From positions 615 to 64,614 of the forward strand of contig JAFYQP010000058.1 in the NCBI GenBank assembly GCA_017559855.1: a stretch of DNA of 64,000 nucleotides. Direction: 5' to 3'. A program made the position numbers and the translations under genes. Position 1 is the first letter of the stretch, and every line of letters begins with the position of its first letter. The DNA is from Clostridia bacterium (GTDB taxonomy: Bacteria > Bacillota > Clostridia > Oscillospirales > JAAYXM01). This document shows, piece by piece, positions 21,668-60,506 of the stretch. Under the pieces are notes generated by a model. It had not been told where the DNA came from. It searched no databases and worked only from the letters and a program-made list of their open reading frames with translations.

Positions 21668-21726
21668 AAAAATCCCCATCTGTTATTCTGGCAGATGGGG
21701 AAAAATATTAAAAGAGAGTGTTTGCT

Positions 21727-22908
21727 ATGAAACTTAAAAATTTCGCAATAGTTCTTTTCGTCTGTATTATGATGTTTTCTACATCGGCATCTGCACTTAC
21801 AATCACGGTTGTGCCCAGTGACAGAACTACCTTTTCAGATGTCCCGTCAAGTCATTGGGCGTATAGATACGTAATGACAATGGCGGACAAAGGCATCCTT
21901 AAAGGAACAAGTACTCCGGTAAACGGTGTGGGTACTTATTCTCCAAACGGCAAGGTTACCGTTGGCGAGTTTCTGACAATTGCAACGCGCCTTGTAGCAT
22001 CAAACAATATAAAAACGAGTGGTAATTTCCCCCATTGGGCAATCCCCTATTACCATGCAGCGGTGAGTGTCGGACTAATTACATCTGATCAATTTGACTG
22101 CACATCATACGTTCTCAACACTCCGATATCAAGAGAGGATATGGCAAGTATTTTGGTTGAAGTCGCACGGGTTAACGGCGAAACTTTACACATCACACCC
22201 GACATCGAATATAATATGTTAGACTACAACACAATCACTGATGATAAAAAGGACGCCGTGTGTGCAGCATATTCAAACGGGCTTTTAACCGGCAAAAGCG
22301 GCCATTTATTTGCACCTAAAGACAATTTGACTCGTGCTGAAGTTGCCACGGTTTTCTGTCGTGTAATGAATTATATTGAACGCGAAAAGGTTGTTCTCAC
22401 CTACGTTGGCACAGAACGTGGTAAATACGTTGTTACCGAGCCCGTGGAAACACAAAACATGTTACGCCCCGTTTATTCTGTACAGTTTGGCAAAGATGCA
22501 CTTAACGGTGTACGCTACGGTGTTGACGAAAAAGGCATTTATGTTGAAGTAACCGCACCCATTTTACCGAATGTAATTAACGACGAATACTTTTTTGACT
22601 ATTCCTTTGATGTATACAGAGCAAATGGCGATTACTTTGCCGAGGGAATATGGTTTATATTAAAACCGGGAGAATCGGCAAAAGCACATTTCGTATCTTT
22701 TGAAGAGACAAGTGTATCCCTTAAAATGCTTGGTAATGGTTATGCCAAGGCGGGTGTCATGATTATGAGTAACAAAACCAACAGATACCCCATATTCACG
22801 GCTAACAACCTTTATCCCAACAGAATGGTCATCCAAAGGTCCGATAATATGAGTGTCGAGGCGGTAGACTATAACAGCAGTCACATTTGGAAAGGCATCG
22901 GAAAATAA
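21727..22908 (+). CDS. secreted SLH-domain protein (three N-terminal SLH repeats plus an unknown C-terminal domain)
   Basis: Signal peptide MKLKNFAIVLFVCIMMFSTSASA. SLH-like repeats FSDVPSSHWAYRYVMTMADKGILKG, HWAIPYYHAAVSVGLIT and AYSNGLLTGKSGHLFAPKDNLTRAEVATV. GTG 21718 is an alternative start. Confidence 0.8.
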   Translation: MKLKNFAIVLFVCIMMFSTSASALTITVVPSDRTTFSDVPSSHWAYRYVMTMADKGILKGTSTPVNGVGTYSPNGKVTVGEFLTIATRLVASNNIKTSGNFPHWAIPYYHAAVSVGLITSDQFDCTSYVLNTPISREDMASILVEVARVNGETLHITPDIEYNMLDYNTITDDKKDAVCAAYSNGLLTGKSGHLFAPKDNLTRAEVATVFCRVMNYIEREKVVLTYVGTERGKYVVTEPVETQNMLRPVYSVQFGKDALNGVRYGVDEKGIYVEVTAPILPNVINDEYFFDYSFDVYRANGDYFAEGIWFILKPGESAKAHFVSFEETSVSLKMLGNGYAKAGVMIMSNKTNRYPIFTANNLYPNRMVIQRSDNMSVEAVDYNSSHIWKGIGK

Positions 22909-31420: not shown

Positions 31421-31471
31421 CCGAAGAATCCGCTTTTGCATAGGTTGATAGTAAGTCAGGAGGTATCATCT

Positions 31472-32527
31472 ATGGAAAGCGGATTCTTTTTAGGTGCAAA
31501 CTCAAAACACGGTTTCTATTCACTATACGACAATCTTATCGACCTTAAACGGGCAAAATGCGTGTATATTATAAAAGGCAGTCCCGGATGCGGAAAATCA
31601 TCTTTTATGCGAAAAATAAAAACCAAACTTGAGGAGAAATTTCACGTAGAGCAAATTTTCTGCTCCCTTGATTCAAATTCACTGGACGCAATTTTAATTG
31701 ACGAATTAGGCATAGCATTTGTAGACGGCACTTCCCCCCATGTTGTAGAGCCGAAATTCCCCATGGCGGTTGAGCGATACGTTAATTTAGGTGATTTTGC
31801 AGATGCAGACGCTCTTTCGGATAAAAAGAGTGAAATTATTGATATAACTGCAAAATATAAATCAGGCTTTGAGCGGATTTACAATTTCCTCTCCGTTGCA
31901 GGTGCAATTGAAAGCGAAATTTTTGATATCGCTTTAGGCGGTGTGGATATAAACCGTATCAAGAAAAAGGCGGTTGGCATTATCTCCCGTGAAATCACAA
32001 AACACGGAAGCGGTGGCAATGTTAAAAAGCGGTTTTTATCCTCAATCTCGGCAGATGGTTACGCCACAAACTTTGCCACAATTTCAGATATGGCAGATAA
32101 CGTGTACGTACTGGAGGATAATTTCGGGTTGGGTGCATTTTTACTCGCTCCCATTGCAGACGCGGCACGGGATGCAGGCTTTGACACAATTTTATGCTAT
32201 TCTCCCCTAACGCCTTCCCGCCTTGAACATCTTATAATTCCGGAATTAAAACTCGCTTTCGTAACATCCAAAAAGAGCGATGGTTACACCGGTGTATACA
32301 AAAGAAAAGTGCGGCTCGATGCATTGATCAATCAGGATATTTTACGAGACAAGAAAAAGAAAATTTCCTTCTCCCGCAAACTACTCCACGCAACAATAAA
32401 CGAGGCTTGTACGGCGCTAAAAGATTCCAAACTCATCCACGATGAAATCGAAGCACTCTACAACCCTCACATAGACTTTGACGGTGTGTACGCCCTTGCA
32501 GATAAAATTGCAAATGAAATAATTTGA
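31472..32527 (+). CDS. P-loop NTPase of unknown function (as I recall it, PRK06851-like)
   Basis: 351 aa from MESGFFLG (AGGAGG 8 nt upstream). Walker A GSPGCGKSS. The family name is from memory and was not verified. Confidence 0.7.
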   Translation: MESGFFLGANSKHGFYSLYDNLIDLKRAKCVYIIKGSPGCGKSSFMRKIKTKLEEKFHVEQIFCSLDSNSLDAILIDELGIAFVDGTSPHVVEPKFPMAVERYVNLGDFADADALSDKKSEIIDITAKYKSGFERIYNFLSVAGAIESEIFDIALGGVDINRIKKKAVGIISREITKHGSGGNVKKRFLSSISADGYATNFATISDMADNVYVLEDNFGLGAFLLAPIADAARDAGFDTILCYSPLTPSRLEHLIIPELKLAFVTSKKSDGYTGVYKRKVRLDALINQDILRDKKKKISFSRKLLHATINEACTALKDSKLIHDEIEALYNPHIDFDGVYALADKIANEII

Positions 32528-32630
32528 TTCCCGTTACTATAGTTTCATTATTGGCTTCCCCTTGAGGGGAAGGCTTTCACGTTATGATTTTTTCATTGGT
32601 AATAGCCATATTTGATTTTCATTATAAAAA

Positions 32631-32660
32631 GGACGGTTGTGGTTTTCCCCACTACCGTCC
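32631..32660. terminator. bidirectional intrinsic terminator closing the TIR operon
   Basis: 12-bp stem ggacggttgtgg/ccactaccgtcc (one mismatch) with a 6-nt loop, flanked by A5 and T6, 7 nt past the TIR gene stop. Confidence 0.75.
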
Positions 32661-32667
32661 TTTTTTA

Positions 32668-35600
32668 TTAATAGTCTTTTGGTTTGCCGCATTTTACACA
32701 CTTTTTGAAAAGCAGTCCTTTAAGTTCACCACCACAGTACTGACACACACCTGCGTTGCGGTACTGTTCTTTTTGCTGTTCAATTAAACGTAGTTTCTCA
32801 GCTCTCGCTGCAGAAAGTTCTCTTCTCTTTTCTTGCAATTCTGCAACAGATTCCGCTTCAATAGGTAATTGAATATCCTGCCATGCACCCACATTAGACT
32901 TTCCTCTATAATTGCTTCCTGCGGCAACAACCGTACCGTCACGTTTTAGACCAACAGTGTGGCAATCACCTGCAGAAATCGCAACTATATTCTCCCAATG
33001 CGATACATCGCACTGTCCGCAGTAATTATTACTGTACCCTACATATTTCGTGGCAACAACCGTACCGTCACGTTTTAGACCAACAGTGTGGCAATCACCT
33101 GCAGATATTGCAACAATATCCCGCCATTCGGAAACATTACATTGGCCACTCTTGTTATTTCCAACTGCAACAACAGTACCATCAGATTTAAGACCTACCG
33201 TGTGATAATAACCTGCTGAAATGGCTACTATATCCTTCCAATGTGACACTTCACACTGACCACTATTAGAACTGACAATCGAATCCAAAGAATCTGCAAT
33301 ATACTTTGTGGAAACAACAGTACCATCATATTTAAGTCCTACCGTGTGACAAGAGCCCGCAGAAACAGCGGCTATATCGTTCCAATCCGACACCTCACAT
33401 TGACCATTTCTACTGCTGCCAATAGCAACAACAGTTCCGTCAAACTTAAGACCTACCGTATGAAAGTTTCCCGCAGAAAAAGCAGCAATATCTCGCCACG
33501 AAGATACGTTACATTGGCCATTCTCGTTATTTCCAACTGCAACAACAGTACCATCAGATTTTAATCCTACCGTGTGACAGGAACCCGTAGCAACCGCAAC
33601 GATATCACTAAAATCTGATACTTCACATTGGCCGTAGTAAGATTTCTTGTCACCAATATACTCTGTTGCAATAACTGTACCATCAGATTTAAGACCAACC
33701 GTGTGGTAACAGCCTACGGCAATAGAATTTTGCGAGGTCATTACCAAGTTTTTTTCAAGTATCGGATAGAACTCTTCCTTTTTACTTTGCAGTTCTCTTT
33801 CCCTTTGTTTTAAAACTTCTCTGCGTTTAGCAAATAATTCTTCAACGCTCTCCGCTTCAATTGGAATTTGAATATCCTGCCAATCAGAAACATCGCATTG
33901 ACCGTGATAATTTATACCAACGGCAACCACGGTGCCATCATTCTTAAGTCCAACAGTGATGCAACGTCCTGCGAATACGGCAACCATATCAGTCCAATCT
34001 CTTACATCACACTCACCATCATCATTGTCACCAACGGCAACTACAGTGCCATCATTTTTAAGTCCGACAGTGTGACAAGAGCCTGCGGATATAGCGATAA
34101 TGTCTATCCAATCTCTCACATCGCACCGACCGTAATAATCATCACCAACGGCAACAACGGTGCCATCATTCTTAAGTCCGACAGTGTTGCAATCACCTGC
34201 AGATACGGCAACGATGTTTTTCCAAGAGGAAACCTTGCACTCACCGCAAGTGTTACTGCCTACCGCAACAACCGTGCCGTCACCTTTAAGTCCGACAGTG
34301 TGGTGATCACCTGCGGATACGGCAACTATATCAGTCCAATCTCTTACATCGCACTGACCGTGATCATTGTCACCAACAGCAACAACGGTGCCATCATTCT
34401 TAAGTCCGACAGTGTGGTGATAACCTGCGGATACGGCAACCATATCAGTCCAATCTCTTACATTGCACTGACGGTGATCATTGTCACCAAGGGCAACCAC
34501 GGTGCCATCATTCTTAAGTCCGACAGTGTGGTGATAACCTGCGGATACGGCAACCATATCGGTCCAATTTCTTACATTGCACTGACCGTCATCATTGTTA
34601 CCAACAGCAACAACGGTGCCATCATTCTTAAGTCCGACAGTGTGACAATTACCTGCAGAAATTACGCTTTGCAAATTTTTAGCCGCGTTTTTTTCTAATA
34701 TTGGGCGGAATTCCGCTTCTCTTTTCTCTTTCTCTTTGCGGCGTTTTTCCGTCTCTTCCTTAATACGTTCTTCTATACAGTTTATGTAACCTTCAAGTTC
34801 TTTTTTCAAGGCATCATCGCCGAATCGGATAACTTTTTGATAATTTGGATTCTCTTCAAAGGTTTCTTCACACTTTGACAAATCTTCACGAACTCTTATA
34901 TGTAATTCCGCCATAAGTTTGCCTAAGTACGCTTCTGCAAACTTGGCGTCGAAATTAAGCACTTTTTCAAAGAAATCGTCGGCTTTCTCCCACTCACCGT
35001 CTTCAAGTGCCATAAAACCACGCTCTAAAAGTGCGGTGAGGTTTCCGTTTGCGTTTTCTGCTGTTTGTGTTGCAGTTGTTACCGTTTCCTGCTTTGTTTC
35101 CGGGGTTGTAACCTTTTTAATACCACGGACAACGTCGTTTATAAAGCCGATTTTCGCCATATCCTGTGCCTGAAGGTGTGCAAACTCTTCGGGCAGTTCA
35201 TATGCGTCCATATCACGGTAGCAAGGAATTAAAAGTTTTGAACGATCTTTTTCTATTATTTTAAGGAATCGTGACCACTCGTTCTTTACCCATACCGCAC
35301 TGAAATATTCGGGCTTTGTACCGATAACAAGCATTACCTTTGCAGAGTTAAGTGCCGCAAAAATACACGGTTCGTAAGATTTTCCAAGTTTATCCTCAAG
35401 CGTTATTGCCGCATAGAAAACCTTTAAACCTTCATTGGTAAGTTGGTGGTATATATCATTTGCGATTACGGAATCCTGAGTTCTAGCACCCGATGCGTCG
35501 GTTTCCTTATAGCAGATAAAAACGTCGTAGTTCTCCTCACTTTGTGCAAGGGCGAGAATTTCTTTCTGTATTCTGTCGATCTCACGTGCTTCCGACTCGT

Positions 35601-35994
35601 AAATACTTCTCTGCGTTGTATCTGCATACTCAATGGCGGACTTATAGTCCTCATCACTTACAACCGCATCATATGACGCTCTATGGCAGGTGGGAATTCG
35701 TTTGAAGGTTTGCGGATCCTCCACATACTCAATACCGTATTTACACAGAATGAGTCCCCAATAAGCCTCTGCCTGAGTTTCATCACTTGCGATAATTTTC
35801 TCATAAAGGCGTTCTGCCTTGTCAAATTCGCACTTAATTCTCAAAGTATTTGCACGGTTAAAAAGATTCTGCAGATTTTCATCTCTGCTTGAGGGTACGG
35901 TTTGTGTTGTTCCGCAAAACTCGCACTCGCAGATTTTTTCATCTCCTGCAATATTCAATTCACCGCCACACATTTTACACTTAAAAAATGCCAC
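32668..35994 (-). CDS. 1108-aa multidomain TIR-domain protein: N-terminal zinc ribbon, helical region, TIR, coiled coil, 7 RCC1-like blades, coiled coil, 7 RCC1-like blades, C-terminal zinc ribbon
   Basis: Single uninterrupted ORF. GTG start at 35994 with AGGTGG 7 nt upstream. Domain assignments come from motifs read in the translation (see sub-features). No signal peptide or TM segment. Confidence 0.9.
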   Translation of the reverse strand: MAFFKCKMCGGELNIAGDEKICECEFCGTTQTVPSSRDENLQNLFNRANTLRIKCEFDKAERLYEKIIASDETQAEAYWGLILCKYGIEYVEDPQTFKRIPTCHRASYDAVVSDEDYKSAIEYADTTQRSIYESEAREIDRIQKEILALAQSEENYDVFICYKETDASGARTQDSVIANDIYHQLTNEGLKVFYAAITLEDKLGKSYEPCIFAALNSAKVMLVIGTKPEYFSAVWVKNEWSRFLKIIEKDRSKLLIPCYRDMDAYELPEEFAHLQAQDMAKIGFINDVVRGIKKVTTPETKQETVTTATQTAENANGNLTALLERGFMALEDGEWEKADDFFEKVLNFDAKFAEAYLGKLMAELHIRVREDLSKCEETFEENPNYQKVIRFGDDALKKELEGYINCIEERIKEETEKRRKEKEKREAEFRPILEKNAAKNLQSVISAGNCHTVGLKNDGTVVAVGNNDDGQCNVRNWTDMVAVSAGYHHTVGLKNDGTVVALGDNDHRQCNVRDWTDMVAVSAGYHHTVGLKNDGTVVAVGDNDHGQCDVRDWTDIVAVSAGDHHTVGLKGDGTVVAVGSNTCGECKVSSWKNIVAVSAGDCNTVGLKNDGTVVAVGDDYYGRCDVRDWIDIIAISAGSCHTVGLKNDGTVVAVGDNDDGECDVRDWTDMVAVFAGRCITVGLKNDGTVVAVGINYHGQCDVSDWQDIQIPIEAESVEELFAKRREVLKQRERELQSKKEEFYPILEKNLVMTSQNSIAVGCYHTVGLKSDGTVIATEYIGDKKSYYGQCEVSDFSDIVAVATGSCHTVGLKSDGTVVAVGNNENGQCNVSSWRDIAAFSAGNFHTVGLKFDGTVVAIGSSRNGQCEVSDWNDIAAVSAGSCHTVGLKYDGTVVSTKYIADSLDSIVSSNSGQCEVSHWKDIVAISAGYYHTVGLKSDGTVVAVGNNKSGQCNVSEWRDIVAISAGDCHTVGLKRDGTVVATKYVGYSNNYCGQCDVSHWENIVAISAGDCHTVGLKRDGTVVAAGSNYRGKSNVGAWQDIQLPIEAESVAELQEKRRELSAARAEKLRLIEQQKEQYRNAGVCQYCGGELKGLLFKKCVKCGKPKDY
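32683..32751 (-). other. C-terminal CxxC-x11-CxxC zinc-ribbon motif
   Basis: Residues 1082-1104: GVCQYCGGELKGLLFKKCVKCGK. Confidence 0.7.
32869..33726 (-). repeat. coding tandem repeat block 2: seven RCC1-like blades (38-49 aa units)
   Basis: Residues 757-1042. Units of xxHTVGLKxDGTVVAxGxNxxGQCxVSxWxDIVAxSAG. Three units carry insertions (TEYIGDKKSYYGQC, TKYIADSLDSIVSSNSGQC, TKYVGYSNNYCGQC). A 54-nt exact DNA repeat starts at 32923 and again at 33052. Confidence 0.85.
33871..34662 (-). repeat. coding tandem repeat block 1: seven 38-aa (114-bp) RCC1-like blades
   Basis: Residues 445-708. Units such as YHHTVGLKNDGTVVAVGDNDHGQCDVRDWTDMVAVSAG. A 60-nt exact DNA repeat occurs at 34387-34446 and 34501-34560. 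Confidence 0.9.
35125..35529 (-). other. TIR domain (residues ~156-290)
   Basis: YDVFICYKETD (betaA), LKVFYAAITLEDKLG (betaB/BB loop), SAKVMLVIGT, and AVWVKNEWSRF, which fits the WxxxE motif with the putative catalytic Glu239 (codon 35278-35280). Confidence 0.8.
35905..35985 (-). other. N-terminal zinc-ribbon motif
   Basis: Residues 4-30: FKCKMCGGELNIAGDEKICECEFCGTTQ (CxxC...CxCxxC). Confidence 0.7.
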
Positions 35995-36007
35995 GTTAAC
36001 CCCACCT

Positions 36008-37669
36008 TTACTTCATACTTAAAACCTTCTTTATCTTTCCGTCACTTTCGGTATCGTAGGTAATTTCCACCACGTCGCCTACGTTTAACGTTACCGCACG
36101 TTGGTCGTCACTTGCGGATATTGCGTAATAGTTTTCGCTACCTTCAAGTTTAAGATAATACACGGTGTTACCCTCGATAACCGCATCACGGATTTCAACG
36201 ATTTTACCGCTTACACCGTCTTCAATAGGTGTTACCTCTTGGGTAATGTTGTTCTGTGCTAAAAGTTTAATATAGTTTTTCTCACATTCTGCCAAAGACG
36301 CACCGGTTGCAACTACCTGATACTGCTCTACATTTACCATTGCATACATTTTTACAAGTTGTGCATTGTCCTTAAGTGCAACGAAATACGTAGGTTTTGT
36401 AGAAACGTTAAGAAGCAGCGGGAAGGTTGCTCTATAACCTAAATGCTGTACGACACCCTCCGCGGATGACATTGCAGAATACTCGGTTGCACCCGCAACG
36501 GTATAGTATTTCGTATCCTTTGTTCTCTGGTTGCAGAGGATAAAACCAACGTTTGACTGGTCACTACCTGCAGAGGTGATTCCGGTATATACGTAAACGT
36601 CATCGTTAAGTGCGATATAGTTATAGCCTGTTGTGGTGACAGTTACGTTCTTTTGTCCGAAAATAGAATTTAAAAAGCCGTTTATATAAGTGCCGTGATA
36701 ATCGTACTGTTGCATAATAAGACTTGCATTATACACGTGGTCAACCCATGTGGGTACTTCTTCAAAATACTCACACTCACCGGTTATCGCATCAACAAGT
36801 ACCGCACCGTTTATATCAACACCGCCGAAAAGGCCTATTTTCTTCACGATTCGGGGACATACCCAATAAGGCTTACCCTCTTCGTCTATTTCGAAATTTG
36901 CCTCTGCGAACATAAAGGTAGGATAATTAAATCGCAAGTGACGTTCTAACTTTCTGCCGAAATGTTCCGAGGGTGAATACTTGATACCGTCGGTAAGTCT
37001 TACAACGTCAACCTCCTGAGTTACCATATCTATAACAAGATACGCAGGAAGTCCCGCACCTCTGTTGTTAAACCACTTAATAAGGTCGCCGTATTCAAGG
37101 GGTGTTACACGAACGGGGCGGTTTTTAAAATTAATTTGAGTATAATTGTCCGCGACTTCAAACTGACTTACCATATCGGAAAGTTCGCCAAGTTTTCTAT
37201 CGCCCAAACGCTTTGCACTTTCAGAGTCAAGCATTGGAATTTTGTTGTATGAAATTTCCTTAACATCGGTTGCAAAATCGCCGTTTTCTACGGTTATAAG
37301 GTCACGGTACGCACCCGCTCTTATAACCTCCCAAGAGGTAATTCCGCCAAAGACGGTGATAATAACCGCAAGAACAAGAACTATTGCGGGAATTTTACAC
37401 TGTTTTTTAACAAAACTGCCGTACTCACTCAATCCACCTTCAAGTTTTATTCCCGACGTAACGAGAGACAGTGCCATATAAACTACCGCAAGAGTGCCGA
37501 TGAAAAAATAAAACTCGCTATCTTGCAAGTTAATTGCCGGAAGTTTTACATAAAAATACACGAAACCAAAAATCAACGTGATCACTATGTTTATAAGCAC
37601 ACGAAGAAAAGGCGTCTTAATTGTAAAACGCCCCATATCCTTTGCTTTGGAATAATCAAAACTTGCCAT
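36008..37669 (-). CDS. 553-aa membrane protein of unknown function (3 N-terminal TM helices plus a ~440-aa probably extracytoplasmic domain)
   Basis: ATG 37669 with AAGGAG 9 nt upstream. The TM helices are at about residues 22-42, 53-73 and 92-112. I recognise no enzymatic motif. The stop lies 13 nt before the TIR gene start, and the TIR RBS begins at the last base of that stop codon. Confidence 0.85.
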   Translation of the reverse strand: MASFDYSKAKDMGRFTIKTPFLRVLINIVITLIFGFVYFYVKLPAINLQDSEFYFFIGTLAVVYMALSLVTSGIKLEGGLSEYGSFVKKQCKIPAIVLVLAVIITVFGGITSWEVIRAGAYRDLITVENGDFATDVKEISYNKIPMLDSESAKRLGDRKLGELSDMVSQFEVADNYTQINFKNRPVRVTPLEYGDLIKWFNNRGAGLPAYLVIDMVTQEVDVVRLTDGIKYSPSEHFGRKLERHLRFNYPTFMFAEANFEIDEEGKPYWVCPRIVKKIGLFGGVDINGAVLVDAITGECEYFEEVPTWVDHVYNASLIMQQYDYHGTYINGFLNSIFGQKNVTVTTTGYNYIALNDDVYVYTGITSAGSDQSNVGFILCNQRTKDTKYYTVAGATEYSAMSSAEGVVQHLGYRATFPLLLNVSTKPTYFVALKDNAQLVKMYAMVNVEQYQVVATGASLAECEKNYIKLLAQNNITQEVTPIEDGVSGKIVEIRDAVIEGNTVYYLKLEGSENYYAISASDDQRAVTLNVGDVVEITYDTESDGKIKKVLSMK

Positions 37670-59192: not shown

Positions 59193-59663
59193 TTATAAGA
59201 TAAAATTTAAAAACCCAAGAAAACCATAGGATACGCCACCCACCAAAAGACCTGCGATAACAACACCTGCAAAAATCGCAGGCAAGGAGGTCTTAAGTCG
59301 GATGTCAAGCAACGCAGCAAGTAGTGCACCACTCCACGCACCCGTGCCCGGAAGTGGGATTCCCACAAAAATTGCAAGACCTATCGCCTCATATTTTTTA
59401 ACAACAGCACTTTTTTTCATAACTCTGGTTTCAAGCCAGGTTATCTGTTTGGTAAGCCAATTCTTTTTACGACAAAAATCAAATATTTTTCTTATGAATA
59501 AGATGATAAAAGGTACAGGTAAAAGGTTAGCAAGAATTGCAATTATTACACATTCCCAAAAAGGTAAATCCATCGCCGCACCATAGGGAATGCCTCCCCT
59601 TAATTCAATAAACGGTACCGCAGATATAAGCATAAGTATAATTGCATGTTTTAAATTCGTCAT
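59193..59663 (-). CDS. small multidrug-export-like membrane protein (COG2426 / Sm_multidrug_ex family)
   Basis: 156 aa from MTNLKHAIILMLISAVPFIELRGGIPYG (GGAGG 5 nt upstream). The track start at 59696 lies inside a TATAAT box. Confidence 0.8.
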   Translation of the reverse strand: MTNLKHAIILMLISAVPFIELRGGIPYGAAMDLPFWECVIIAILANLLPVPFIILFIRKIFDFCRKKNWLTKQITWLETRVMKKSAVVKKYEAIGLAIFVGIPLPGTGAWSGALLAALLDIRLKTSLPAIFAGVVIAGLLVGGVSYGFLGFLNFIL

Positions 59664-59710
59664 AATATCCTCCAGGCAAATTTTACATACACTCATTATA
59701 ACATAAAAAT

Positions 59711-59747: not shown

Positions 59748-60293
59748 TTATTTTTCAATTCTTTCAATAAGGCGACGAAGGGGTTTATATAAGAAGTAGG
59801 TTATACAAGCATTTCCTCCCGCTTTTATCAAATTAAATAAAATTATAAACGGCAATAACTGCACAACCGCAGAAACCGGAATTCCCATATAATACGGTAA
59901 AACAAGAAGATCCCATAAAACCATTGTGCACACCATTGCCAAAGTGCCTGCAATCAATGCTATGCGTGCGGTTTTTCTGGTCTTGTTTCTTTTGTAGATA
60001 AATCCTGCGGATATTACGAAACTTCCGGTTGCAACAACGTGCATTATAATACCTACAATTCCGTCCTTAACACAAACCGTAACACCTTGAATTATACTTG
60101 CCACTGCGGTAAGTGCAAGTCCCCACCAAGGGCCAAACATAAACGAACCGATAAAGATCGGTATATCTGCAGGATCATACTCCATAAAAGGTATCACCGG
60201 GAATATCGGAAAATGTACAAACCATATCAGGATAACCGATATTGCCACAAACATAGCAAGTGTAACCAATCTGACAATTTCTTTTCTCTTCAT
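59748..60293 (-). CDS. ribU: ECF-transporter S component, riboflavin-specific (RibU-like)
   Basis: 181 aa with six TM segments. It lies directly downstream of an FMN riboswitch. Confidence 0.85.
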   Translation of the reverse strand: MKRKEIVRLVTLAMFVAISVILIWFVHFPIFPVIPFMEYDPADIPIFIGSFMFGPWWGLALTAVASIIQGVTVCVKDGIVGIIMHVVATGSFVISAGFIYKRNKTRKTARIALIAGTLAMVCTMVLWDLLVLPYYMGIPVSAVVQLLPFIILFNLIKAGGNACITYFLYKPLRRLIERIEK

Positions 60294-60365: not shown

Positions 60366-60500
60366 ACCGCATCTTCTTCCATCCGGACTATACCGTCGGC
60401 GTTGGAATCTCACCAAACTCAATTGCGTTATACGCAAGTCGCGGGCTTATCGGCTATACCGAATTACCGCCGGTGGGGAATTACACCCCGCCCTGAAGAT
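60366..60500 (-). promoter_or_regulatory. FMN riboswitch (RFN element)
   Basis: The minus strand reads ucuucagggcggggugUAAUUCCCCACCGGCGGUAa...AGCCCGCGAc...gguGAGAUUCCAACGCCGACGGUAUAGUCCGGAUGGaagaaga. This matches the conserved RFN core (AAUUCCC-ACCGGCGGU, AGCCCGCG, AUUCC...GCCGAC-GU-UAGUC-GGAUG). Confidence 0.9.
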
Positions 60501-60506
60501 ACTATT

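What the first reader, a model, noticed from the sequence alone, without database searches (positions are those of the whole stretch)
32668..35994. Giant cytoplasmic TIR protein with zinc ribbons at both ends and two 7-bladed RCC1-like propellers: candidate uncharacterised TIR sensor/defence-type protein
The 1108-aa ORF can be read domain by domain. Residues 4-30 form a CxxC...CxCxxC zinc ribbon. Residues ~45-150 are helical and carry AEAYWGLILCKYGIEYVEDP...PTCHR. Residues 156-290 form a TIR fold (YDVFICYKETD; KVFYAAITLEDKLG; AKVMLVIGT; AVWVKNEWSRF). Residues 300-444 are a TPR-like and K/E-rich coiled coil. Residues 445-708 hold seven 38-aa repeats (HTVGLKxDGTVVAxGxNxxGQCxVxxWxDIVAxSAG). Residues 709-756 form a second coiled coil, and residues 757-1042 hold seven more repeats. 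Residues 1082-1104 form a second CxxC-x11-CxxC ribbon. There is no signal peptide or TM helix. Bacterial TIR domains are established NAD+-consuming or signal-producing modules of anti-phage systems (Thoeris ThsB, TIR-STING, TIR-APAZ/SPARTA), and repeat propellers are typical ligand-sensing modules. This fusion has none of the known partner genes nearby (no SIR2/SLOG ThsA, STING, Argonaute or caspase-like gene). From memory, the N-terminal zinc-ribbon plus TIR module recurs in gut Clostridia under the bare label 'TIR domain-containing protein', with no assigned function. I could not verify that here.
Basis: partly seen in the sequence, partly recalled or inferred. Interest (0 to 1): 0.85.

Follow-up and report, generated by a model that had tools for sequence, protein, structure and literature searches.

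The report
Orphan cytoplasmic TIR–double-propeller sensor protein
This gene encodes a soluble member of a very large, unstudied family of gut-Clostridia proteins that join a near-constant zinc-ribbon/TIR 'head' to a highly variable ligand-binding 'tail'; most relatives span the membrane like Toll-like receptors and sit beside a flotillin-like gene pair, so the family looks like an undescribed sensing or immune system, but its function is untested.

Summary
ORF 32668-35994 (-) encodes 1108 aa: N-terminal zinc ribbon, helical module, TIR domain with an invariant catalytic-type Glu (E239), TPR/coiled coil, two 7-bladed BLIP-II/RCC1-like propellers and a C-terminal zinc ribbon, with no TM helix. 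NCBI already lists it as 'TIR domain-containing protein'.

New here:
- The first ~295 aa are a constant 'head' (55-84% identical) shared by more than 4000 50%-identity clusters in gut/rumen Clostridia. Tails vary (DUF6273, TPR, RCC1, LRR, MORN).
- About 70% of members have one TM helix after the head, which predicts TLR-like topology. TM-less members such as this one often end in a zinc ribbon instead.
- Family genes form tandem paralog arrays around a conserved Band_7_1/SPFH zinc-finger gene plus a ~230-aa membrane-protein gene (at least 53/79 loci). That pair is absent from this window.
- The gene is a clean ~3.45-kb single-gene insertion into a housekeeping block and is missing from the collinear locus of two related genomes.

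Best reading: a ligand-triggered TIR NAD+-cleaving or signalling sensor of an undescribed conflict or stress system. No enzymatic or phage data exist, and the clusters do not lie in clear defence islands.

The parts
32668..35994 (-). Complete ORF, 1108 aa, GTG start: ZnR - helical module - TIR - TPR/coiled coil - propeller - coiled coil - propeller - coiled coil - ZnR
   Evidence: 100% identical to P0389, NCBI 'MAG: TIR domain-containing protein [Clostridia bacterium]'.
35893..35994 (-). N-terminal zinc ribbon (res 1-34; C6, C9, C22, C24, C27)
   Evidence: Read directly from the sequence. Four short strands in the AF2 model. C6/C9/C24/C27 are invariant or nearly invariant in alignments A1-A3.
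35539..35892 (-). Family-specific helical module (res 35-152): a TPR-like pair of helices, a beta-hairpin carrying the invariant PTCHR motif (101-105), and a long helix
   Evidence: AF2 pLDDT about 85-95. Weak TPR_2 hit at 44-71. No structural match in the PDB. Invariant residues listed.
35107..35532 (-). TIR domain (res 155-296). The predicted catalytic Glu, E239, is encoded at 35278-35280.
   Evidence: Pfam TIR_2 at 42 bits, above the cutoff of 28. Foldseek hits to TIR structures. E239 aligns with the Glu of the TcpB 'WPARE' motif. N238-E239-W240 is invariant in 62 diverse representatives.
34678..35046 (-). Post-TIR TPR-like helices (317-391) and a long, 53%-charged helix (394-439), a probable coiled coil. 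It occupies the position where most relatives have a TM helix.
   Evidence: AF2 model; charge fraction; family comparison.
33880..34662 (-). Propeller 1: seven ~38-aa RCC1_2 blades (res 445-705)
   Evidence: Pfam. AF2 pLDDT above 90. Foldseek match to BLIP-II, TM 0.82. 114-nt DNA tandem repeats, 6.7 copies at 79% matches.
33745..33846 (-). Inter-propeller long helix (res 717-750)
   Evidence: AF2 model. Part of the duplicated module.
32860..33726 (-). Propeller 2: seven blades with longer loop insertions (res 757-1045)
   Evidence: Pfam. AF2 model. 60% identical to module 1.
32671..32847 (-). C-terminal long helix (1050-1080) and a CxxC-x11-CxxC zinc ribbon (C1084, C1087, C1099, C1102)
   Evidence: Among 120 TIR-RCC1 relatives, a C-terminal zinc ribbon occurs in 21 of 49 TM-less members and in none of 71 TM-bearing members.
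36000..36007 (-). Shine-Dalgarno-like AGGTGGGG inside the 13-nt gap after the stop codon of the upstream CvpA-like gene. This suggests co-transcription.
   Evidence: Read directly from the sequence. Promoter-like sites occur only upstream of the CvpA-like gene, at 37740-37694; these are consensus matches only.
32626..32665 (-). Intrinsic terminator hairpin immediately after the stop codon
   Evidence: strand folding: dG -25.5 kcal/mol, z-score -8.0, and 0 of 200 shuffles fold as well.
32528..36007 (.). Segment between the CvpA-like gene stop and the convergent P-loop gene stop. About 3.45 kb of it is present here and in L081 but absent from the collinear loci L083 and L085, where a 28-nt terminator spacer takes its place.

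Best explanation
The gene encodes a cytoplasmic member of a very large, uncharacterised family of 'constant head / variable tail' TIR proteins from Clostridia.

Shown:
- The head (zinc ribbon, helical module with the PTCHR hairpin, canonical TIR with an invariant catalytic-type Glu) is under strong conservation.
- The tail is hypervariable between paralogs.
- Paralogs form tandem arrays around a conserved SPFH(Band_7_1)/zinc-finger gene plus a small membrane-protein gene.
- Most members have one TM helix between head and tail.
- This copy has no TM helix. It carries two BLIP-II-like, protein-binding-type propellers and a C-terminal zinc ribbon.
- It is a single-gene insertion, apparently co-transcribed with a housekeeping membrane-protein gene.

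Inferred mechanism:
- The tail is the ligand sensor. Here it would sense a cytoplasmic ligand, probably a protein. In TM-bearing paralogs it would sense an extracellular ligand.
- Ligand binding, helped by the coiled coils, clusters the heads.
- As in other TIR enzymes, head-to-head assembly completes the active site around E239. The result is NAD+ cleavage and/or production of an ADPR-derived signal.
- Where the SPFH-TM pair is present, it is the membrane scaffold or effector that organises or reads out the receptors.
- The biological role is most likely conflict sensing (phage or other invaders), in the manner of a Toll-like receptor.

The window copy would act either alone, through NAD+ depletion, or with an SPFH-TM pair encoded elsewhere in the genome. 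The latter arrangement is seen in MAG RGIG7194, where two orphan copies coexist with one full cluster.
For: - Architecture.
- Catalytic-type Glu: it aligns with the TcpB motif and is invariant in diverse representatives.
- Family size and head conservation: 4135 50%-identity clusters at E<=1e-30, with heads 55-78% identical. There are at least 542 relatives in GTDB species genomes.
- Variable tails: Pfam census. Same-locus paralogs have heads with a median 62% identity, while the identical fraction of their tails has a median of 23%.
- Tandem arrays and the conserved SPFH-TM pair in at least 53 of 79 loci. The pair is also adjacent to the closest same-architecture relatives, P0398 and P0173.
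- Topology split: about 70% of members have a TM helix preceded by a K/R cluster. The C-terminal zinc ribbon is found only in TM-less members.
- Accessory status: insertion polymorphism at an otherwise collinear locus.
- No conserved neighbours. Recombinases are the commonest flanking family.
- Mobile or conflict-type genes occur in several loci: relaxase and recombinase in L001; a Lit-like Peptidase_U49 in L086; Fic, PIN-TPR-GreABC, Viral_Rep and FtsK in L088.
- RGIG7194 holds L002 and L024 (orphans) and L041 (with the pair).
- That TIR enzymes are activated by oligomerisation, and that the Glu is catalytic, is established knowledge (SARM1, AbTir, ThsB, plant TNLs).
Against: - No biochemical or phage data exist for any member.
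- PADLOC recognises only a weak TIR-level similarity (PDC-S66, 27 bits) and nothing for the SPFH or TM partners.
- NCBIfam Thoeris and retron-TIR hits are far below their cutoffs.
- The window is entirely housekeeping and has no defence genes.
- Flanks of family clusters are mostly metabolic genes, with few defence hits.
- The head was not found in the phage or plasmid collections.
- The SPFH-TM pair resembles the B. subtilis YdjGHI membrane-stress module (PMC8581546), which is not an immune system.
- The partner pair is not in this window, and the rest of the source genome could not be searched.
- TM calls rest on simple hydropathy, and gene calls in the loci are my own ORF scans.
Confidence: 0.45

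Rival explanations
1. This is a module for envelope or membrane homeostasis, or for environmental sensing, and not for immunity. By analogy with B. subtilis YdjG (zinc-ribbon membrane protein), YdjH (membrane protein) and YdjI (soluble Band_7 SPFH protein with a C-terminal zinc finger), the zinc-ribbon heads would dock an SPFH cage at the membrane. The variable tails would read cell-wall, polysaccharide or host cues, much as the multi-paralog RsgI anti-sigma sensors of cellulolytic Clostridia do. The TIR domain would serve as a second-messenger generator or as an interaction scaffold that controls physiology.
For: - Conserved SPFH(Band_7_1)+TM partner pair.
- The YdjGHI architecture and interactions are described in PMC8581546 and PMC9239133.
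- Tails include typical surface-type repeats: LRR_5/BspA, DUF6273, RCC1_2.
- There is no clear defence-island context.
- The family is abundant in fibre-degrading Ruminococcus and other Oscillospirales.
Against: - The invariant catalytic-type Glu and the canonical TIR motifs argue for an enzyme and against a pure scaffold.
- The extreme expansion of paralogs, the presence/absence polymorphism between close relatives and the association with recombinases are more typical of conflict systems.
- No PspA gene was seen in the clusters.
Confidence: 0.25
2. This is a stand-alone, single-gene abortive-infection NADase. The window protein needs no partner. Its propellers bind a phage protein in the cytoplasm, and the TIR domain then depletes NAD+. 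In this view the association with SPFH-TM in other loci concerns only the membrane-bound paralogs.
For: - The gene is an isolated insertion with its own SD and terminator and no partner within 64 kb.
- It is TM-less and fully cytoplasmic.
- BLIP-II-like propellers are high-affinity protein binders.
- It has a weak similarity to the PADLOC single-gene candidate PDC-S66.
- 24 family ORFs lie in loci with no SPFH gene within 10 kb.
Against: - The closest TM-less TIR-RCC1-ZnR relatives (P0398, P0173) are encoded directly beside the SPFH-TM pair.
- In RGIG7194, orphan copies coexist with a complete cluster.
- The rest of the source genome could not be seen.
Confidence: 0.17
3. This is a secreted or host-directed TIR effector of the Tcp/Btp type, which would interfere with host TLR signalling in the gut.
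For: - The best sequence match in the PDB is Brucella TcpB.
- The organism lives in the gut.
Against: - There is no signal peptide or secretion-system context.
- Zinc ribbons at both ends imply a cytoplasmic location.
- In TM-bearing relatives the TIR head lies on the predicted cytoplasmic side.
- The TcpB match is weak (E 0.002) and reflects only the shared TIR fold.
Confidence: 0.03
4. This is a non-functional remnant or a purely structural repeat protein. The orphan copy would be decaying after transfer.
For: - It is separated from the usual partner pair.
- The recently duplicated 114-nt repeats could be neutral expansion.
Against: - The 3.3-kb ORF is intact.
- All family-invariant head residues are retained.
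- A second sample of the same species carries the same gene, with 99.875% nucleotide identity over the 17.7-kb locus and only two amino-acid changes in the protein.
- It has a good SD and a good terminator.
Confidence: 0.05

Closest known systems
Thoeris ThsB and other bacterial sensor TIRs (TIR-STING, SPARTA TIR-APAZ, AbTir)
   Same: Canonical TIR fold with the catalytic-type Glu in a W-x3-E context. It is fused to a presumed sensing module. The gene is accessory and variably present.
   Different: - There is no ThsA-type effector (SIR2/SLOG or Macro-TM), STING, Argonaute or SAVED partner in the window or in any related locus.
- NCBIfam Thoeris and retron-TIR models score far below their cutoffs.
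- The family-specific N-terminal zinc-ribbon/helical module has no known counterpart.
- The partner is an SPFH protein plus a small membrane protein.
Animal Toll-like receptors (LRR ectodomain - TM - cytoplasmic TIR)
   Same: Across the family, a repeat-type ligand-binding domain (including LRR_5 and LRR_8) is separated from a cytoplasmic TIR by a single TM helix. The genes form multi-paralog repertoires with a constant signalling part and a variable sensing part.
   Different: - The order is inverted: the TIR is N-terminal and the membrane orientation is type II.
- The TIR keeps an enzyme-type Glu.
- The window protein itself has no TM helix.
- Common descent of the architecture is not implied by this comparison.
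Plant TNLs / bacterial TIR-STAND (Avs, bNACHT) receptors
   Same: An N-terminal TIR followed by C-terminal repeats that probably bind ligands. Activation by oligomerisation is expected.
   Different: No NB-ARC, NACHT or STAND NTPase lies between the TIR and the repeats. Coiled coils and TPR-like helices take that position.
BLIP-II (Streptomyces beta-lactamase inhibitor protein II) and RCC1-like domains (UVR8, RCC1, HERC, ACR4 ectodomain)
   Same: Seven-bladed propeller with short ~38-aa blades. TM 0.82, rmsd 2.2 A and 30% identity to BLIP-II. Pfam RCC1_2 and WD40_RLD match.
   Different: There are two propellers in tandem, they are cytoplasmic, and they are fused to a TIR head. The ligand is unknown.
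B. subtilis PspA-YdjGHI membrane-stress module
   Same: The family's partner pair has the same parts list: a soluble Band_7_1 SPFH protein with C-terminal zinc fingers, a small polytopic membrane protein, and single-pass proteins that start with an N-terminal zinc ribbon.
   Different: - YdjG has no TIR domain.
- No PspA gene was seen in the clusters.
- Homology of the TM partner to YdjH was not tested.
- The pair is absent from this window.
Brucella TcpB/BtpA and other Tcp virulence TIRs
   Same: This is the best PDB sequence match to the TIR domain, and the catalytic Glu is aligned.
   Different: The similarity is weak (E 0.002). There is no secretion context, and the rest of the architecture is entirely different.

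Membership tests
TIR domain superfamily (Pfam TIR_2, PF13676) | Profile match above the curated threshold | tested here: met
   42 bits against a cutoff of 28, residues 158-280. TIR_2 matches 62 of 62 family representatives.
TIR domain superfamily (Pfam TIR_2, PF13676) | Flavodoxin-like TIR fold | tested here: met
   The AF2 head model (pLDDT 86) matches Roq1, AbTir, TRIF, MyD88, TcpB, MAL, SPARTA and TIR-STING TIR domains, with target-normalised TM up to 0.74.
Enzymatic (NADase/signal-generating) TIRs | Catalytic glutamate in the W-x3-E motif of helix alpha-C | tested here: met
   E239 in AVWVKNEW aligns with the Glu of the TcpB motif QWPARE. It is invariant in alignments A1, A2 and A3.
Enzymatic (NADase/signal-generating) TIRs | NAD+ cleavage or cADPR-isomer/ADPR-conjugate production | not testable with these tools
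   This needs biochemistry on the purified protein, with an E239A control.
Thoeris (ThsB + ThsA) | Adjacent ThsA-type effector (SIR2-SLOG, Macro-TM or equivalent) | tested here: not met
   None in the window and none in the related loci inspected. NCBIfam ThcB4 scores 17 bits against a cutoff of 220.
Known/candidate defence systems in PADLOC-DB v2 | Significant match of the protein and of its partners to a system model | tested here: inconclusive
   The only hit is PDC-S66, at 27 bits over the TIR part. The SPFH and TM partners have no hits. No complete system is present in the window.
RCC1-like / BLIP-II seven-bladed propeller | Seven repeats of ~38-50 aa that form a closed propeller | tested here: met
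   RCC1_2 in 13 stretches and WD40_RLD. AF2 gives 7+7 blades at pLDDT above 90. Foldseek matches BLIP-II at E 4e-25 and TM 0.82.
STAND/NLR-type TIR receptors (TNL, Avs, bNACHT) | Central NB-ARC/NACHT/STAND NTPase domain | tested here: not met
   There is no P-loop domain in the protein. Residues 300-444 are TPR-like and coiled-coil helices.
Clostridial ZnR-TIR 'constant head' family (undescribed; defined here) | N-terminal ~295-aa head: zinc ribbon, PTCHR hairpin and TIR with the NEW motif, at least 55% identical to other members | tested here: met
   The window head is 55-84% identical to thousands of proteins. All invariant columns are retained.
Clostridial ZnR-TIR 'constant head' family (undescribed; defined here) | Adjacent SPFH(Band_7_1)-zinc-finger gene and ~230-aa membrane-protein gene | tested here: not met
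   There are no tblastn hits to either partner anywhere in the 64-kb window. The pair is present in at least 53 of 79 related loci and next to P0398 and P0173. Whether it occurs elsewhere in the source genome could not be tested.
Toll-like-receptor-type topology (sensor - TM - TIR) | A single TM helix between the TIR and the sensing domain | tested here: not met
   The window protein has a maximum hydropathy of 1.22 and no TM helix. The feature is met by about 70% of family members and by 71 of 120 TIR-RCC1 relatives.

The most novel reading that the evidence does not exclude
The window protein is the soluble form of a vast, unrecognised repertoire of bacterial Toll-like TIR receptors in gut Clostridia. 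The repertoire would consist of a constant cytoplasmic zinc-ribbon/TIR signalling head, hypervariable extracellular or cytoplasmic ligand-binding tails (RCC1, LRR, DUF6273, MORN and others), and a dedicated SPFH-cage plus membrane-protein partner. Together these would form a new kind of surface- and cytoplasm-surveying immune or signalling system that works through TIR-made nucleotide signals at membrane microdomains.
Probability: 0.35. Interest if true: 0.85.

Novelty: new variant of a known kind. Interest (0 to 1): 0.64.

Why it matters
TIR domains are the shared signalling currency of immunity in animals, plants and bacteria. The known bacterial TIR systems are cytoplasmic.

This family would supply thousands of bacterial proteins with a receptor-like layout: a variable repeat ectodomain, one TM helix and a cytoplasmic TIR. 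It also includes soluble variants such as this one, and it is linked to a flotillin-like SPFH partner. It is abundant in human and animal gut Clostridia, where defence systems are poorly charted.

If the family is functional as proposed, three things follow:
- It would show that sensing with TLR-like topology exists in bacteria.
- It would connect SPFH membrane microdomains to TIR signalling.
- It would offer a natural library of BLIP-II/LRR-type binders with unknown ligands.

If instead it is an envelope-homeostasis module, it would give TIR enzymes a non-immune role in bacteria. Either outcome can be tested with standard NADase assays and heterologous expression.

Tried and rejected
1. Exact look-up of the window protein failed, most likely because the GTG start is translated as V. 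The protein was later found as P0389.
2. The first homolog search suggested short proteins of 300-520 aa. The exhaustive search and the genome loci show members of 436-1900 aa.
3. Hypothesis: TM-less paralogs are 'adaptors' that always sit immediately upstream of the SPFH gene. Rejected, because TM-bearing and TM-less copies occur in all positions.
4. Hypothesis: the adjacent CvpA-like 553-aa gene or the P-loop 363-aa gene is a functional partner. Rejected. Both are conserved in relatives that lack the TIR gene, and neither ever neighbours family members elsewhere.
5. A profile search of the head against PDB sequences gave only spurious WD40 and TPR repeat matches.
6. The head gave no tblastn hit in the phage or plasmid collections. 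These collections contain few gut Clostridia elements, so this negative is weak.
7. Pfam and PADLOC searches on the ~230-aa TM partner gave no SLATT or other effector family. The SPFH partner has no close solved structure.
8. Literature searches for TIR+SPFH, Thoeris+SPFH, TIR+RCC1 in bacteria, and gut Clostridia TIR NADases found no description of this family.
9. No target-site duplication or inverted repeat was evident by eye at the insertion junctions. The mechanism of insertion remains unknown.

Full report

Yes. The ORF listing returns a 1108-aa ORF at 32668-35994 on the - strand with a GTG start. An AGGTGGGG Shine-Dalgarno-like motif lies in the 13-nt gap after the upstream gene's stop. 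The N-terminus MAFFKCKMCGG matches the MA(L/F)FKCKMCGG start of homologs.

Pfam gives RCC1_2 in 13 stretches (E 8.7e-97), WD40_RLD (4.8e-71), TIR_2 at 158-280 (42 bits, cutoff 28) and a weak TPR at 44-71.

An AF2 model of residues 1-300 (pLDDT 86, pTM 0.82) and a full-length model (pLDDT 86; pTM 0.43, as expected for domains on flexible linkers) show the following parts:
- a four-stranded zinc ribbon;
- a helical module containing a beta-hairpin that carries PTCHR;
- a TIR alpha/beta domain;
- a disordered linker (299-316);
- TPR-like helices and a long charged helix (394-439);
- seven blades (445-705), a helix (717-750) and seven more blades (757-1045);
- a helix (1050-1080) and the terminal CxxC-x11-CxxC ribbon.

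Foldseek matches the TIR part to solved TIR domains: Roq1, AbTir, TRIF, MyD88, TcpB, MAL, SPARTA and TIR-STING. It matches the propellers best to BLIP-II (E 4e-25, TM 0.82, rmsd 2.2 A, 30% identity), then to UVR8, RCC1, HERC and the ACR4 ectodomain.

The two propeller modules are an internal duplication, 60% identical over 305 aa. At the DNA level the blades are 114-nt tandem repeats. No TM helix is predicted; the maximum 19-residue Kyte-Doolittle mean is 1.22.

**2. What family is it?**

The exact protein is already deposited as 'MAG: TIR domain-containing protein [Clostridia bacterium]' on a 64,925-bp contig (P0389).

The first ~295 residues are a near-constant module. An exhaustive HMMER search of 1.84 billion cluster representatives finds 7115 proteins at E<=1e-3 and 4135 at E<=1e-30. 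Their heads are 55-78% identical and their total lengths run from 436 to 1591 aa. A scan of one genome per GTDB species finds at least 542 relatives. Most are from Oscillospirales (Acutalibacteraceae, Oscillospiraceae, Ruminococcus), with some Lachnospiraceae and Erysipelotrichaceae from gut and rumen, and there are often several per genome.

In 62 diverse representatives TIR_2 is universal. The remainder varies: extra TPRs (54), DUF6273 (19), RCC1 (5-6), LRR_5 (4), LRR_8 (3), MORN, FNIP and WG repeats. The invariant head residues include C24/C27 of the ribbon, P101-T-C-H-R105, the D157-x-F-x-C-Y-K beta-A motif and N238-E239-W240. E239 aligns with the Glu of the Brucella TcpB 'WPARE' motif. 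From the literature on BtpA, SARM1, AbTir, ThsB and plant TIRs, that Glu is the catalytic residue.

Among paralogs that share a locus, heads have a median identity of 62%, whereas the identical fraction of tails has a median of 23%.

**3. Topology of the family**

About 70% of the 263 family proteins examined have one strongly hydrophobic segment 320-760 residues from the N-terminus, usually preceded by a Lys/Arg cluster. This predicts a cytoplasmic head, a single membrane pass and an extracellular tail.

Among the 120 closest TIR-RCC1 relatives, 71 have such a helix, and in 62 of them it precedes the first blade. None of those 71 ends in a zinc ribbon. Of the 49 TM-less relatives, 21 end in a CxxC...CxxC ribbon, as the window protein does. 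This mutual exclusivity is what one expects if TM-less tails are cytoplasmic. The window protein therefore belongs to a real, recurrent soluble sub-architecture, with either a single or a double propeller.

These TM calls are simple hydropathy estimates. They do not come from a dedicated predictor.

**4. Genomic context**

The window itself is core housekeeping: uvrB-uvrA, hlyIII, a GT4 glycosyltransferase, trpS, aminotransferases, spoIIR, EF-G-type GTPases, SRP54, TrmD, Obg, MetK and FolD. It has no tRNA genes, no recombinases and no complete PADLOC system.

The upstream 553-aa 'CvpA family' membrane protein is a widespread, core-like gene of Oscillospiraceae. I compared the locus in three other assemblies:
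- In a second sample of the same species (L081, 99.875% nucleotide identity) the TIR gene is present, with two amino-acid differences.
- In two related genomes (L083 and L085, CvpA-like orthologs 83% and 81% identical) the entire block is collinear but the TIR gene is missing. There the CvpA-like stop is followed by a 28-nt terminator hairpin and then by the convergent P-loop gene.

The gene is therefore a ~3.45-kb single-gene insertion. It has its own SD and a strong terminator (dG -25.5 kcal/mol, z -8), and it is probably read through from the CvpA-like promoter (consensus matches only). No repeats or mobile-element genes mark the junctions.

**5. The family has a conserved partner pair that the window lacks**

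In 79 related loci I called 123 family ORFs, often in tandem (up to five in 20 kb). None of the window's neighbours recurs there.

Clustering all flanking ORFs reveals two recurrent, co-directional genes. One is a 370-650-aa protein found in 53 loci, and the other is a ~230-aa membrane protein found in 47 loci. They are arranged as [TIR]n - SPFH - TM - [TIR]n. Many loci are cut by contig ends, so these counts are lower bounds.
- The first is a Band_7_1/SPFH protein (E 2.5e-37). It often has four N-terminal zinc ribbons and three or four C-terminal W-x-C-x-C...C-x2-C zinc fingers.
- The second has 3-4 TM helices and a helical cytoplasmic domain with a YSDPVS motif. It has no Pfam or PADLOC match.

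The two closest relatives with the window's own architecture are encoded directly beside this pair. These are P0398 (1102 aa, double propeller, TM-less, C-terminal ribbon) and P0173 (839 aa, single propeller).

The window has no homolog of either partner and no second family copy. Orphan copies do coexist with a complete cluster in at least one MAG: RGIG7194 holds L002 and L024 (orphans) and L041 (with the pair). I could not search the rest of the source genome.

**6. Is it a defence system?**

The evidence for:
- a canonical enzyme-type TIR;
- a constant-head, variable-tail design;
- tandem paralog arrays;
- insertion polymorphism between close relatives;
- recombinases as the commonest flanking family (7 of 127 immediate neighbours);
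- mobile or conflict-type neighbours in the loci inspected in detail: relaxase and recombinase, a Lit-like Peptidase_U49, and Fic, PIN-TPR-GreABC, Viral_Rep and FtsK.

The evidence against, or missing:
- PADLOC sees only a 27-bit TIR-level match to PDC-S66.
- NCBIfam hits are far below threshold.
- Most flanking genes are metabolic, and defence hits are sporadic.
- There are no copies in the phage or plasmid collections.
- No paper in the searchable library describes a TIR+SPFH system or this family.

The SPFH-TM pair has the same parts list as B. subtilis YdjG/H/I, a membrane-stress module that recruits PspA (PMC8581546, PMC9239133). This keeps a non-immune envelope-sensing role in play.

**7. 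Most likely mechanism**

Shown: the architecture, the conservation pattern, the topology split, the partner pair and the accessory status.

Inferred:
- The tail binds a ligand. BLIP-II-type propellers are high-affinity protein binders.
- Binding, together with the coiled coils, clusters the heads.
- As in other TIR enzymes, TIR-TIR assembly completes the active site around E239, which gives NAD+ cleavage and/or an ADPR-derived signal.
- The SPFH cage and the small membrane protein scaffold or read out this event at the membrane.

For this soluble orphan, the output is either NAD+ depletion on its own or signalling to a pair encoded elsewhere. I put 0.45 on this ligand-triggered TIR sensor model in a conflict context. 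I put 0.25 on an envelope or environmental-sensing role, 0.17 on a strictly stand-alone Abi-type NADase, and small weights on a host-directed effector or a decaying remnant.

**8. Comparison with known systems, and novelty**

It is a member of the TIR superfamily and of the RCC1-like/BLIP-II propeller class; both were tested and met. It is not Thoeris, because it has no ThsA-type partner. It is not a STAND/NLR-type TIR receptor, because it has no NTPase domain. It does not match any PADLOC system.

Across the family the layout works like a Toll-like receptor (sensor, TM helix, TIR) with inverted domain order, but the window protein itself lacks the TM helix.

I rate it a new variant of a known kind. 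The protein is already catalogued under a generic name. The family-level organisation appears to be undescribed: the constant ZnR-TIR head, the split between TM-bearing and soluble tails, and the SPFH-TM partner.

Interest is 0.64. It is still substantial because of the size of the family, its TLR-like topology and its testability.

Noticed in passing
window 60367-60504 (-): FMN riboswitch (RF00050), 115.9 bits and full-length. It lies upstream of the small ORFs at 59748-60293 and 59193-59696 on the same strand.
   Followed up: no
window 33868-34698 (+): A 276-aa antisense ORF lies entirely inside the RCC1 repeat region. It is almost certainly a by-product of the 114-nt repeats lacking stop codons on the opposite strand, and not a gene.
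   Followed up: partly
window 36008-37669 (-): A 553-aa membrane protein that NCBI names 'CvpA family protein' has no Pfam hit at all, yet it has at least 8000 homologs (60-100% identical) across Oscillospiraceae. It is a conserved core gene of unknown function. One homolog carries a PASTA domain.
   Followed up: partly
window 31436-32527 (+): A 363-aa P-loop protein (only sub-threshold AAA/STAND-like hits) is conserved next to spoIIR in all relatives examined, convergent with the CvpA-like gene. It is not linked to the TIR gene, and its function is unknown.
   Followed up: partly
L025:6365-8215, L017:4372-6333, L057:7447-9300 and others: The SPFH partner proteins carry four N-terminal CxxC zinc ribbons. 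They also carry 3-4 C-terminal repeats of W-D-C-x-C-G-x3-I/V-x-G-N-F-C-x2-C-G-x-K/R-R-P, which resemble RanBP2-type zinc fingers. A Gly-rich hydrophobic stretch precedes these repeats.
   Followed up: partly
L088:12538-16508: In the P0173 cluster a DUF4760 gene lies between the TIR-RCC1 gene and the SPFH gene. A 543-aa RCC1-only protein without a TIR head follows the TM partner. Tails can therefore exist as separate genes.
   Followed up: no
L086:2368-3552 / L087:4793-5977: A 394-aa protein with a weak Peptidase_U49 (Lit-like abortive-infection protease) hit and an Endonuclease_NS gene lie a few kb upstream of the Band_7_1-TM-TIR-RCC1 cluster.
   Followed up: no
L030, L038, L077: Some loci come from MAGs labelled Chloroflexi, Sodaliphilus or Alistipes although their heads are 66-76% identical to Clostridial ones. 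This could be binning contamination or horizontal transfer across phyla.
   Followed up: no
The search for homologous proteins seems to list only hits up to about 1.75 times the query length. A 297-aa query returned nothing longer than 520 aa, which made the family look short. This is an inference from the results, but it is worth knowing when reading such tables.
   Followed up: yes
window 21718-22908 (+): An SLH-domain (S-layer homology) protein of 396 aa lies among biosynthetic genes. The same kind of SLH surface protein recurs near family clusters in 8 of 79 loci (cluster 'c4').
   Followed up: no
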